Shown here piece by piece: positions 44,901-47,900 of a stretch of 64,000 nt of DNA (positions are counted from its first letter, which is position 1; every line of letters starts with the position of its first letter). The DNA is from Escherichia coli. GTDB taxonomy: Bacteria; Pseudomonadota; Gammaproteobacteria; Enterobacterales; Enterobacteriaceae. The stretch lies in NCBI RefSeq assembly GCF_003334815.1, contig NZ_QOWO01000019.1; one strand, 5' to 3'. The position numbers are program-made.

Positions 44901-47900
44901 TCGCGGCGGTGGATTTGGTTTAGTTACCGCCTGTGCTGCCGGTGGGCTTGGCGCGGCAATGGTTCTGGAGGCGGAATAATGGAAATGACATCAGCGTTTA
45001 CCCTTAATGTTCGTCTGGACAACATTGCCGTTATCACCATCGACGTACCGGGTGAGAAAATGAATACCCTGAAGGCGGAGTTTGCCTCGCAGGTGCGCGC
45101 CATTATTAAGCAACTCCGTGAAAACAAAGAGTTGCGAGGCGTGGTGTTTGTCTCCGCTAAACCGGACAACTTCATTGCTGGCGCAGACATCAACATGATC
45201 GGCAACTGCAAAACGGCGCAAGAAGCGGAAGCTCTGGCGCGGCAGGGCCAACAGTTGATGGCGGAGATTCATGCTTTGCCCATTCAGGTTATCGCGGCTA
45301 TTCATGGCGCTTGCCTGGGTGGTGGGCTGGAGTTGGCGCTGGCGTGCCACGGTCGCGTTTGTACTGACGATCCTAAAACGGTGCTCGGTTTGCCTGAAGT
45401 ACAACTTGGATTGTTACCCGGTTCAGGCGGCACCCAGCGTTTACCGCGTCTGATAGGCGTCAGCACAGCATTAGAGATGATCCTCACCGGAAAACAACTT
45501 CGGGCGAAACAGGCATTAAAGCTGGGGCTGGTGGATGACGTTGTTCCGCACTCCATTCTGCTGGAAGCCGCTGTTGAGCTGGCAAAGAAGGAGCGCCCAT
45601 CTTCCCGCCCTCTACCTGTACGCGAGCGTATTCTGGCGGGGCCGTTAGGTCGTGCGCTGCTGTTCAAAATGGTCGGCAAGAAAACAGAACACAAAACTCA
45701 AGGCAATTATCCGGCGACAGAACGCATCCTGGAGGTTGTTGAAACGGGATTAGCGCAGGGCACCAGCAGCGGTTATGACGCCGAAGCTCGGGCGTTTGGC
45801 GAACTGGCGATGACGCCACAATCGCAGGCGCTGCGTAGTATCTTTTTTGCCAGTACGGACGTGAAGAAAGATCCCGGCAGTGATGCGCCGCCTGCGCCAT
45901 TAAACAGCGTGGGGATTTTAGGTGGTGGCTTGATGGGCGGCGGTATTGCTTATGTCACTGCTTGTAAAGCGGGGATTCCGGTCAGAATTAAAGATATCAA
46001 CCCGCAGGGCATAAATCATGCGCTGAAGTACAGTTGGGATCAGCTGGAGGGCAAAGTTCGCCGTCGTCATCTCAAAGCCAGCGAACGTGACAAACAGCTG
46101 GCATTAATCTCCGGAACGACGGACTATCGCGGCTTTGCCCATCGCGATCTGATTATTGAAGCGGTGTTTGAAAATCTCGAATTGAAACAACAGATGGTGG
46201 CGGAAGTTGAGCAAAATTGCGCCGCTCATACCATCTTTGCTTCGAATACGTCATCTTTACCGATTGGTGATATCGCCGCTCACGCCACGCGACCTGAGCA
46301 AGTTATCGGCCTGCATTTCTTCAGTCCGGTGGAAAAAATGCCGCTGGTGGAGATTATTCCTCATGCGGGGACATCGGCGCAAACCATCGCTACCACAGTA
46401 AAACTGGCGAAAAAACAGGGTAAAACGCCAATTGTCGTGCGTGACAAAGCCGGTTTTTACGTCAATCGCATCTTAGCGCCTTACATTAATGAAGCTATCC
46501 GCATGTTGACCCAAGGTGAACGGGTAGAGCACATTGATGCCGCGCTAGTGAAATTTGGTTTTCCGGTAGGCCCAATCCAACTTTTGGATGAGGTAGGAAT
46601 CGACACCGGGACTAAAATTATTCCTGTACTGGAAGCCGCTTATGGAGAACGTTTTAGCGCGCCTGCAAATGTTGTTTCTTCAATTTTGAACGACGATCGC
46701 AAAGGCAGAAAAAATGGCCGGGGTTTCTATCTTTATGGTCAGAAAGGGCGTAAAAGCAAAAAACAGGTCGATCCCGCCATTTACCCGCTGATTGGCACAC
46801 AAGGGCAGGGGCGAATCTCCGCACCGCAGGTTGCTGAACGGTGTGTGATGTTGATGCTGAATGAAGCAGTACGTTGTGTTGATGAGCAGGTTATCCGTAG
46901 CGTGCGTGACGGGGATATTGGCGCGGTATTTGGCATTGGTTTTCCGCCATTTCTCGGTGGACCGTTCCGCTATATCGATTCTCTCGGCGCGGGCGAAGTG
47001 GTTGCAATAATGCAACGACTTGCCACGCAGTATGGTTCCCGTTTTACCCCTTGCGAGCGTTTGGTCGAGATGGGCGCGCGTGGGGAAAGTTTTTGGAAAA
47101 CAACTGCAACTGACCTGCAATAAGAAGGTCAAAGCTATATGAATCCGCGCTGAATGGCGGAGTGTTGGTCAAAATGTAAACGCATATTGACTATACTTAC
47201 GCCATTGAGGTAAAAAACAGCGTTTCATTCGGTGAATGGATAAGGCACAATGCCGGCCACCGTTTTCTTTCTCTGGTTTCAGATGAAAGAAAACGGGCGA
47301 ATCTGGTTAACAAAAGCGGTGCAATATGCAAGTTTTTATCATGCGTCACGGCGACGCAGCCCTCGATGCCGCCAGTGATTCCGTTCGTCCTCTGACCACT
47401 AATGGTTGTGACGAATCTCGCCTGATGGCGAACTGGCTGAAAGGTCAAAAAGTGGAAATCGAACGCGTTCTGGTGAGCCCGTTCCTGCGAGCCGAGCAAA
47501 CACTGGAAGAAGTAGGGGATTGTCTGAACCTGCCTTCCAGTGCAGAAGTTCTGCCGGAGTTAACGCCCTGCGGCGATGTTGGTCTGGTCAGTGCCTATTT
47601 GCAGGCGTTGACCAATGAAGGTGTTGCTTCGGTACTGGTGATCTCTCACTTACCGTTAGTCGGGTATCTGGTTGCCGAGTTATGTCCGGGCGAAACGCCG
47701 CCTATGTTTACCACCTCGGCCATTGCCAGCGTAACGCTTGATGAAAGCGGAAACGGCACATTCAACTGGCAGATGAGCCCGTGTAATCTGAAGATGGCAA
47801 AAGCTATCTGATGAGTTCCAAATTATGCCCAATGAGGTAGATTCATTGGGCATAATTGCTCATCAGGCAGCGGATATCTGTCAACCTCACTACTATCGAA

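What the first reader, a model, noticed from the sequence alone, without database searches (positions are those of the whole stretch)
47821..47857. Perfect 15-bp palindrome immediately after sixA without a T-tract
aattatgcccaatga-ggtagat-tcattgggcataatt begins 10 nt after the sixA stop. It is longer and more perfect than a typical intrinsic terminator stem, lacks a U-tract, and is not a REP element. It could be a Rho-dependent or RNase-processing site, a protein-binding operator, or a structured 3' UTR element.
Basis: seen in the sequence. Interest (0 to 1): 0.3.

Follow-up and report, generated by a model that had tools for sequence, protein, structure and literature searches.

The report
Hairpin that ends the sixA mRNA
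The perfect palindrome just after the E. coli sixA gene is the RNA hairpin at which the sixA messenger ends in published 3'-end maps, most likely a protective cap left after Rho-dependent termination a little further downstream, so it is real but an ordinary, already described kind of element.

Summary
A perfect 15-bp inverted repeat with a 7-nt loop lies at 47821-47857, starting at the 10th base after the sixA stop, and has no T-tract. It extends through an outer stem that covers the stop codon, giving about 25 bp (-43 kcal/mol for 91 nt, z = -7.8).

It is single-copy. It occurs in 3100 of 5426 complete E. coli genomes, always after sixA, and is invariant in 3096 of them. It is not REP and has no Rfam match.

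Published K-12 data place the primary sixA 3' end at window 47859-47863, 2-6 nt after the stem. The end at 47859 is an RNase II trimming-stop site. The 80 nt downstream are C-rich and G-poor (C22/G6, 99.6th percentile). A bicyclomycin-sensitive Rho termination region peaks at about 47940.

These features match the class described by Dar and Sorek (2018): a stem-loop without a U-tract that marks and protects the 3' end of a Rho-terminated transcript.

Other Escherichia lineages carry a different hairpin at the same place, with the same GCCC/GGGC core and compensatory changes. Several of those have U-tracts.

Verdict: a real, functional element of a known kind. Interest is low. Rho dependence of the sixA transcript itself is inferred, not proven.

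The parts
47326..47811 (+). sixA coding sequence (phosphohistidine phosphatase). The stop UGA is at 47809-47811 and is followed in frame by a second UGA at 47812-47814.
   Evidence: ORF list. RefSeq annotation of identical E. coli sequence.
47821..47857 (+). Inner perfect hairpin: 15-bp arms at 47821-47835 and 47843-47857, loop 47836-47842. This is the protective stem-loop at the 3' end of the sixA (fadI-fadJ-sixA) mRNA.
   Evidence: It is 100% identical in 3096 of the 3100 genomes that carry it. Structure is conserved with compensatory changes across 7 Escherichia alleles.
47803..47816 (+). Left arm of the outer stem. It overlaps the last sense codons and the stop codon of sixA and pairs with 47858-47871.
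   Evidence: About one third of carriers have an uncompensated SNP, A47814T, so this part is less constrained than the inner stem.
47858..47871 (+). Right arm of the outer stem. Only its first 2-6 nt are present in the mature RNA, so the full 25-bp hairpin can form only in read-through transcripts.
   Evidence: Fold. Mapped 3' ends.
47859..47863 (+). Experimentally mapped steady-state 3' ends of sixA mRNA in K-12: MG1655 2456275-2456279 on the minus strand. 47859 is an RNase II trimming-stop position.
   Evidence: PMC10687069 Supplementary Data 2-4 list a 'Primary' sixA terminus, Signal 0.75-0.84. PMC10667835 Table S3, sheet 'RNase II ends in WT', and Table S7, operon 303. Coordinate map.
47875..47954 (+). 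C-rich, G-poor tract (C 22, G 6 of 80 nt), a candidate Rho-utilisation (rut) region. The published bicyclomycin-sensitive Rho termination region peaks at about 47940 (MG1655 2456198, minus strand).
   Evidence: Composition: the C-G excess is at the 99.6th percentile of the window. PMC7815308 Supplementary file 2: Rho score 9.29, p = 1.1e-41.

Best explanation
The palindrome is transcribed as the last structured element of the sixA mRNA (fadI-fadJ-sixA operon) and folds into a very stable RNA hairpin. Because it has no U-tract, RNA polymerase mostly does not release at it. Polymerase runs on into a C-rich, G-poor stretch (about 47875-47954) where Rho loads and terminates within roughly 100 nt. 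3'-to-5' exonucleases then chew the unstructured tail back to the foot of the hairpin, with RNase II doing the final trimming. This leaves a precise, protected 3' end 2-6 nt after the stem. The hairpin therefore sets the 3' end and the stability of the sixA message. Together with Rho, it keeps transcription from running into the adjacent AT-rich yfc fimbrial operon. Shown: the hairpin, the mapped 3' ends, the RNase II dependence of the end at 47859, the downstream C-over-G bias, a Rho-sensitive region just downstream, and structural conservation. Inferred: that the Rho-terminated molecules are the sixA transcripts, that the hairpin stabilises the mRNA, and the insulation of yfc.
For: Structure: a perfect 15-bp stem, an extended fold of -43.1 kcal/mol, z = -7.8. 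No U-tract: the terminator scan finds nothing, the tail score is at background level, and the authors' own table gives 'Max U-tract 2'. The primary sixA 3' terminus is at MG1655 2456275-2456278 = window 47860-47863, with Signal 0.75-0.84 and adjusted p down to 4e-85 (PMC10687069; register checked against the thrL attenuator row). The operon end is at 2456278, and 2456279 is an RNase II stop (0.339 in WT vs 0.024 in delta-rnb, FDR 0.023; PMC10667835). Rho region at 2456198(-): downstream reads rise from 73 to 738 with bicyclomycin while upstream reads go from 136 to 148 (PMC7815308). C22/G6 in the 80 nt after the hairpin, 99.6th percentile. The general class is described by Dar and Sorek 2018 (PMC6061677). 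Structural conservation: 82.5% of cells paired against 40% or less for slid controls, 9 of 15 pairs with changes on both sides, 0/500 shuffles. A hairpin follows sixA in essentially all 80 Enterobacteriaceae species sampled. An internal control in the same window is the fadL 3' hairpin (41446-41474, 13 bp perfect, no U-tract). It has a Term-seq 3' end 2 nt after it and a Rho region 15 nt further on.
Against: With bicyclomycin, downstream coverage (738) exceeds upstream coverage (148). Part of the Rho-sensitive RNA must therefore start inside the AT-rich intergenic region rather than be sixA read-through, and the 800-nt windows used are coarse. The curated Term-seq list of Adams et al. has no 3' end at the hairpin. 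No PNPase stop or RNase II 'start' position is recorded for this operon, so long-range trimming is not directly seen. RNase II also nibbles the tails of intrinsic terminators, so that result does not discriminate between mechanisms. Homologous hairpins in other Escherichia alleles carry U-tracts, so an intrinsic-terminator ancestry is likely and residual intrinsic activity cannot be excluded. I could not search the gene-level Rho-dependence table of Dar and Sorek because no supplement is held.
Confidence: 0.6

Rival explanations
1. It is a non-canonical intrinsic terminator. The unusually long and stable hairpin alone, perhaps helped by NusA/NusG and the few U residues in AUAAUUGCUCAU, makes polymerase release at about 47862-47868. 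RNase II then nibbles a few nucleotides. The Rho-sensitive signal downstream would belong to other transcripts that start in the AT-rich intergenic region.
For: The 3' end lies 5 nt after the stem, similar to the thrL attenuator row in the same table (6 nt). The coverage drop (Signal) is high, 0.75-0.84. Homologous hairpins in alleles B, C and F and in many Enterobacteriaceae have clear U-tracts, so the element descends from an intrinsic terminator. RNase II trimming in E. coli is typically only 3-5 nt (PMC10667835 main text). Bicyclomycin-induced reads downstream exceed upstream reads, so they are not all read-through.
Against: The tail score of 1.86-2.28 equals the background (mean 2.11), and only 2-3 U occur in the first 8 nt. 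The consensus terminator scan finds nothing. By established knowledge of intrinsic termination in E. coli, a U-rich tract is needed for pausing and hybrid weakening. The immediately adjacent, extreme C-over-G tract and the Rho region are what the Rho-dependent class predicts.
Confidence: 0.25
2. It is a conditional processing site of the lambda sib/tI type. Transcripts that end at the hairpin carry only the inner stem and are stable. Read-through transcripts form the full stem of about 25 bp (outer stem 47803-47816 with 47858-47871), which RNase III cleaves, destabilising sixA mRNA or separating it from yfc RNA.
For: The extended hairpin has 25 pairs interrupted by one internal loop, long enough in principle for RNase III. 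The right outer arm lies beyond the mapped 3' end, so it exists only in read-through RNA. At about 4^-8 per register, an 8-bp perfect outer match (CTGATGAG/CTCATCAG) in register is unlikely by chance (hand estimate).
Against: No experimental RNase III data could be consulted, because no supplement is held for PMC6212723. The outer stem is polymorphic: roughly a third of carrier genomes have the uncompensated A47814T change. It is absent from the other alleles. No RNase E or PNPase sites are recorded for the operon.
Confidence: 0.05
3. It acts at the DNA level, either as an operator for a dimeric regulator (for example of the yfc fimbrial operon) or as a recombination or insertion site that marks the edge of the variable yfc locus.
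For: It is a perfect dyad. It sits exactly where homology between E. coli lineages breaks down. One strain has IS1 inserted in its right arm.
Against: The arms change sequence between alleles while staying complementary, which is unlike a protein recognition site. It lies about 635 bp upstream of yfcV. The homology breakpoints are not at a fixed position: about 47804-47807 for alleles C and D, and about 47834 for allele B. That argues against site-specific recombination. It is a single copy per genome. The RNA 3' end mapped at its foot gives a sufficient RNA-level function.
Confidence: 0.04

Closest known systems
[quoted passage not shown]
   Same: A stable stem-loop lies immediately upstream of a precise steady-state 3' end. 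There is no U-rich tail and no upstream A-tract. C-over-G enrichment (rut) lies immediately downstream. Exonucleases (RNase II, PNPase) are involved in shaping the end. There is bicyclomycin-sensitive transcription beyond it.
   Different: The stem is longer and more perfect than typical: 15 bp perfect, extendable to about 25 bp across the stop codon. Rho dependence of this particular transcript was not shown gene by gene with the data I could read. In other E. coli lineages the same position holds a U-tract hairpin.
Canonical intrinsic (Rho-independent) terminators, for example the thrL attenuator, or the sixA-proximal hairpins of Citrobacter and Kosakonia (AAAGAGCCGC...GCGGCTCTTTTTGTTTT)
   Same: A hairpin with a GC-containing core sits right after the stop codon, with an RNA 3' end a few nucleotides after the stem. 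It is positionally, and in its core sequence, homologous to U-tract terminators in Escherichia alleles B, C and F.
   Different: It lacks the defining U-tract (tail score at background level). The downstream region is Rho-sensitive.
fadL 3' hairpin in the same window (41446-41474)
   Same: A perfect palindrome (13 bp) with no U-tract and a C-rich tail. A Term-seq 3' end lies 2 nt after it and a Rho termination region follows immediately downstream.
   Different: It has a shorter stem and a 3-nt loop, and belongs to a different gene. It serves only as an in-window example of the same class.
Lambda sib / tI retroregulation (RNase III site formed only on read-through)
   Same: A terminator-proximal hairpin can be extended into a longer duplex only in read-through RNA.
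   Different: There is no evidence of RNase III cleavage here, and the outer stem is polymorphic. This is a resemblance only.
REP/BIME extragenic palindromes
   Same: An intergenic imperfect-to-perfect palindrome after a gene end that can protect mRNA 3' ends.
   Different: It is single-copy, has no REP consensus, and has no flanking GTAG/CTAC. Several other Enterobacteriaceae do have true REPs after sixA, but this allele does not.

Membership tests
Protective 3' stem-loop of a Rho-dependent transcript (Dar and Sorek 2018 class) | An energetically stable stem-loop immediately upstream of a precise steady-state RNA 3' end | tested here: met
   Fold of -43.1 kcal/mol, z = -7.8. Published 3' ends at window 47859-47863, 2-6 nt after the stem.
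Protective 3' stem-loop of a Rho-dependent transcript (Dar and Sorek 2018 class) | No uridine-rich tail and no upstream A-tract | tested here: met
   The tail is GCUCAUCAGG, tail score 1.86-2.28 against a background of 2.11. The terminator scan is negative. 'Max U-tract 2' in the TRS table.
Protective 3' stem-loop of a Rho-dependent transcript (Dar and Sorek 2018 class) | Bicyclomycin-dependent read-through beyond the 3' end | tested here: inconclusive
   A Rho region at MG1655 2456198(-) = window ~47940, Rho score 9.29, p = 1e-41. However, downstream reads with BCM (738) exceed upstream reads (148), so not all of this signal can be sixA read-through.
Protective 3' stem-loop of a Rho-dependent transcript (Dar and Sorek 2018 class) | C-over-G enriched (rut-like) sequence immediately downstream of the stem-loop | tested here: met
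   47875-47954 has C22/G6, and the C-G excess is at the 99.6th percentile of 80-nt windows in the window.
Protective 3' stem-loop of a Rho-dependent transcript (Dar and Sorek 2018 class) | A 3' end shaped by 3'-to-5' exonucleases that stop at the stem | tested here: met
   2456279(-) is listed under 'RNase II ends in WT', 0.339 vs 0.024 in delta-rnb. No PNPase stop is recorded.
Canonical intrinsic terminator | A U-tract (several U within about 8 nt) directly after the stem | tested here: not met
   2 U in the first 8 nt after the full stem, 3 if the stem is cut back to GGGC. Alleles B, C and F, by contrast, have 6-7.
Canonical intrinsic terminator | Factor-independent release in vitro / insensitivity to Rho inhibition | not testable with these tools
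   This needs in vitro transcription or transcript-resolved +/-BCM data.
REP/BIME or other dispersed palindromic repeat (MITE) | Many copies per genome sharing a consensus | tested here: not met
   A median of one place per genome, always after sixA, in 3100/5426 genomes and none on plasmids. No other copy in the window.
Curated RNA family (Rfam) | A match to a covariance model at the gathering threshold | tested here: not met
   Only chance-level hits with E above 1.
RNase III substrate (lambda sib-like) | About two helical turns of dsRNA, and rnc-dependent cleavage | not testable with these tools
   The length criterion is met only by the extended 25-bp fold in read-through RNA. Cleavage data were not available.
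Operator of a sequence-specific dimeric DNA-binding protein | Half-site sequence conserved among relatives | tested here: not met
   Only the GCCC/GGGC core is invariant. 9 of 15 pairs change on both sides while keeping complementarity.

The most novel reading that the evidence does not exclude
The same post-sixA hairpin has switched termination mode between E. coli lineages. It is a U-tract intrinsic terminator in alleles B, C and F. In the K-12-type allele (57% of genomes) it is a U-tract-less, lengthened hairpin followed by a rut. Read-through into the neighbouring cryptic yfc fimbrial operon would then be Rho-controlled and possibly conditional. The extended 25-bp duplex that forms only in read-through RNA might serve as an RNase III site of the lambda sib type.
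Probability: 0.1. Interest if true: 0.4.

Novelty: already known. Interest (0 to 1): 0.12.

Why it matters
It explains a conspicuous sequence feature in ordinary terms. It is the structure that defines and protects the 3' end of the sixA (fadIJ-sixA) message in K-12-type E. coli. With Rho, it probably separates a housekeeping operon from a silenced, horizontally variable fimbrial operon. The practical value is for annotation: a hairpin without a U-tract after a gene should not be dismissed as 'not a terminator'. There is also a small evolutionary point. Four allele classes at one locus show a conserved 3'-end hairpin with or without a U-tract. No new mechanism is implied.

Tried and rejected
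1. The Rfam scan of 47000-48600 at E up to 10 gave only chance hits.
2. The consensus promoter/terminator scan found no terminator-like site.
3. A dispersed repeat, REP or MITE was rejected: the element is single-copy in every genome that has it.
4. I considered that the sequence after the hairpin (CTCATCAGGCAGC...) is a relic of the 3' end of smrB, the convergent neighbour in genera that lack the yfc operon. The local alignment score of 13 is below the shuffle mean of 14.2, and 370/500 shuffles scored as high, so this was rejected.
5. The two mirror-image 57-aa ORFs that start at the ATG inside each arm (47825-47998 on + and 47680-47853 on -) are treated as by-products of the palindrome. They have no Shine-Dalgarno sequence, are allele-specific, and were not pursued.
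6. The literature was searched for a named sixA terminator or 3'-UTR sRNA, and nothing was found.
7. Supplements are not held for Dar and Sorek 2018 or for the RNase III target map. The TERMITe supplements have no sixA entry.
8. The Adams et al. curated Term-seq list has no 3' end at the hairpin. This is negative evidence that two other data sets outweigh.

Full report
**Context**

The window is Escherichia coli DNA. fadJ lies at 44979-47123, sixA at 47326-47811, and then a 680-nt AT-rich spacer precedes the fimbrial genes yfcV (48492-49055) and yfcU (49137-51782). All are on the + strand. The window + strand corresponds to the minus strand of K-12 MG1655, with window w = 47811 + (2456327 - K-12 position).

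**Observation**

The palindrome is exactly as described. The arms are 47821-47835 and 47843-47857, 15/15 complementary, with a 7-nt loop. It starts at the 10th base after the sixA stop. No T-tract follows:

- The tail is GCTCATCAGG.
- The consensus terminator scan finds nothing in 47200-48600.
- A TransTerm-style tail score is 1.86-2.28 against a window background mean of 2.11. The thrL attenuator scores 6.07.

47807-47816 pairs with 47858-47867, and 47803-47805 pairs with 47869-47871. The sixA UGA therefore lies in an outer stem, and the whole structure has about 25 pairs. As RNA, 91 nt fold at -43.1 kcal/mol against -20.1 +/- 3.0 for dinucleotide shuffles (z = -7.8).

A perfect 15-bp hairpin is expected about 5e-4 times in 64 kb (hand estimate). 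The window holds four perfect hairpins with arms of 13 bp or more.

**What it is not**

- It has no Rfam family.
- It is not a dispersed repeat. The 37-mer and the 69-nt extended hairpin each occur once per genome, always after sixA and never on plasmids, in 3100 of 5426 complete E. coli genomes.
- The 37-mer is 100% identical in 3096 of those 3100 genomes.
- About a third of carriers have a single uncompensated change in the outer stem, A47814T. This was seen in all three genomes sampled from the 98.6% identity class. The inner hairpin is therefore the constrained part.

**Comparative evidence**

All 5426 genomes have sixA, but homology to the window stops at about 47804-47807 or about 47834 in 43% of them. 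These genomes carry other versions of the sixA-yfc spacer:

| Allele | Genomes | Notes |
|---|---|---|
| A (window / K-12 type) | 3100 | long perfect palindrome, no U-tract |
| B | 429 | O157:H7-like |
| C | 634 | |
| D | 1227 | includes strain F11 |

Together these make 5390 of 5426 genomes. Each allele has a different hairpin at the same position, sharing the core GCCC...GGGC. Some have good U-tracts:

- Allele C: AAGGCCCG...CGGGCCTTTATTTTTTTC, tail score 4.45.
- Allele B: tail scores of 2.95 and 4.08 for two choices of stem end.
- E. albertii: tail score 3.98.

I aligned seven Escherichia versions and imposed the 15-pair helix. 82.5% of cells pair, against 40% or less when the 3' partner is slid by 1-3 columns. 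9 of 15 pairs show changes on both sides, and no shuffle out of 500 reaches the observed covariation.

I then sampled 80 Enterobacteriaceae species. In essentially all of them a strong hairpin follows the sixA stop within 0-66 nt. It is a classical terminator in Citrobacter, Kosakonia and Phytobacter. It is a REP in some Salmonella and Citrobacter. It is a U-tract-less GGCGGG/CCCGCC hairpin between convergent sixA and smrB in Enterobacter and Lelliottia.

The place is thus under selection for a folded strand, not for a particular sequence. That argues against a protein operator.

**Experimental evidence from the literature**

- The TRS study (PMC10687069) lists a 'Primary' sixA 3' terminus with dominant positions 2456275, 2456276 and 2456278 on the minus strand, which is window 47860-47863. 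Signal is 0.75-0.84, adjusted p goes down to 4e-85, the authors' fold of this same hairpin is -26.5 kcal/mol, and the table gives 'Max U-tract 2'. I checked the register of their table against the thrL attenuator row.
- A re-analysis of SEnd-seq data (PMC10667835) gives the fadI-fadJ-sixA operon boundary at 2456278. It lists 2456279 (window 47859) in the sheet 'RNase II ends in WT': 0.339 of ends in wild type against 0.024 in delta-rnb, FDR 0.023. This makes it an RNase II trimming-stop position.
- Adams et al. (PMC7815308) do not list a curated Term-seq end here. Their bicyclomycin experiment gives a Rho termination region with its maximum at 2456198(-), which is window ~47940. Upstream reads are 136 without BCM and 148 with it. 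Downstream reads are 73 and 738. The Rho score is 9.29 and p = 1.1e-41.

The 80 nt after the hairpin (47875-47954) have C22/G6. This is the 99.6th percentile of C-minus-G excess in the window.

**Mechanism**

These features are the ones Dar and Sorek (PMC6061677) reported for Rho-dependent transcripts:

- precise 3' ends immediately after stable stem-loops that lack U-tracts;
- protection against PNPase and RNase II;
- a C-over-G (rut) region immediately downstream.

I therefore favour the following sequence of events, at about 0.6 confidence. Polymerase transcribes through the hairpin. Rho loads on the C-rich tract and terminates within about 100 nt. Exonucleases trim back to the hairpin, and RNase II makes the final cut. 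The hairpin then protects the sixA message.

An in-window control behaves the same way. The fadL hairpin (41446-41474, 13 bp perfect, C-rich tail) has a Term-seq end 2 nt after it and a Rho region 15 nt further on.

There are caveats:

- With bicyclomycin the downstream signal is larger than the upstream one. Part of it must therefore originate inside the spacer.
- The 800-nt windows used for the Rho score are coarse.
- RNase II also trims intrinsic terminators, so that result does not discriminate.

The main rival, at about 0.25, is a degenerate intrinsic terminator that still releases polymerase at the hairpin. A lambda sib-like RNase III role for the extended stem in read-through RNA is possible but unsupported (about 0.05). 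DNA-level roles are unlikely (about 0.04).

**Comparison and novelty**

The kind of element is known. This very 3' end, with its fold, is already tabulated in published supplements, although nobody appears to have discussed it individually. The only mildly new point is evolutionary. At the edge of the variable yfc fimbrial locus, the 3'-end hairpin of sixA is kept in every allele. The U-tract is present in some alleles and absent in the majority K-12-type allele. That allele instead has a longer stem and the strongest downstream C-over-G bias among the Escherichia alleles examined.

**Verdict**

This is a real, functional, ordinary element, and interest is low.

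Noticed in passing
window 47260-47296 (hairpin), 47305 and 47209 (3' ends): A second perfect hairpin without a U-tract (CCGTTTTCTTTC / GAAAGAAAACGG, 12 bp, 13-nt loop) sits in the fadJ-sixA spacer. Adams et al. list Term-seq 3' ends at MG1655 2456833(-) = window 47305, which is 9 nt after this hairpin and 21 nt before the sixA start. They list another at 2456929(-) = window 47209. It could be a processed or terminated fadIJ 3' end, or an attenuator in the sixA leader.
   Followed up: partly
window 41446-41474 (minus-strand transcript, fadL 3' end): A perfect 13-bp hairpin (TAAAGTCACCTGC / GCAGGTGACTTTA) has a C-rich tail and no U-tract. The Term-seq 'primary' fadL 3' end at MG1655 2462694(+) maps 2 nt after it, and a Rho termination region is listed at 2462709(+) (score 5.4). 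It is the same class of element as the sixA hairpin.
   Followed up: partly
window ~47804 onward through the yfc operon; loci L002, L003, L004: The spacer after sixA and the yfc fimbrial genes exist in at least four mutually diverged allele classes in E. coli (3100, 429, 634 and 1227 genomes). Homology to the window breaks at or just before the sixA stop codon. In most other Enterobacteriaceae genera sampled the yfc operon is absent and sixA converges directly on smrB.
   Followed up: partly
L005 (E. coli EC09, NZ_CM169492.1), locus ~2548-3300: One strain has an IS1A element inserted into the right arm of the palindrome, after ...TCATTGGG. A second IS1 truncates the usher gene downstream.
   Followed up: no
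window 49137-51782: yfcU (usher) is an intact 881-aa ORF in the window, whereas MG1655 annotates yfcU (b4661) as a pseudogene of the same length. The window is therefore K-12-like around sixA but is probably not MG1655 itself. I did not compare the two sequences.
   Followed up: no
window ~48161, minus strand: Adams et al. also list a Rho termination region on the opposite strand at MG1655 2455977(+), score 3.9. This indicates Rho-suppressed antisense transcription running from yfcV towards sixA in the AT-rich spacer. A strong promoter-like site on the minus strand (48146 to 48117, 11/12 matches) lies just downstream of it.
   Followed up: no
L026-L047 and similar (Enterobacter, Lelliottia, Leclercia): In genera where sixA and smrB converge, the intergenic hairpin (GGCGGG...CCCGCC, no U-tract) is flanked by an outer stem CUGACG...GUCAG. 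That outer stem contains the stop codons of both genes, echoing the way the stop codon is enclosed in the outer stem of the window's hairpin.
   Followed up: no
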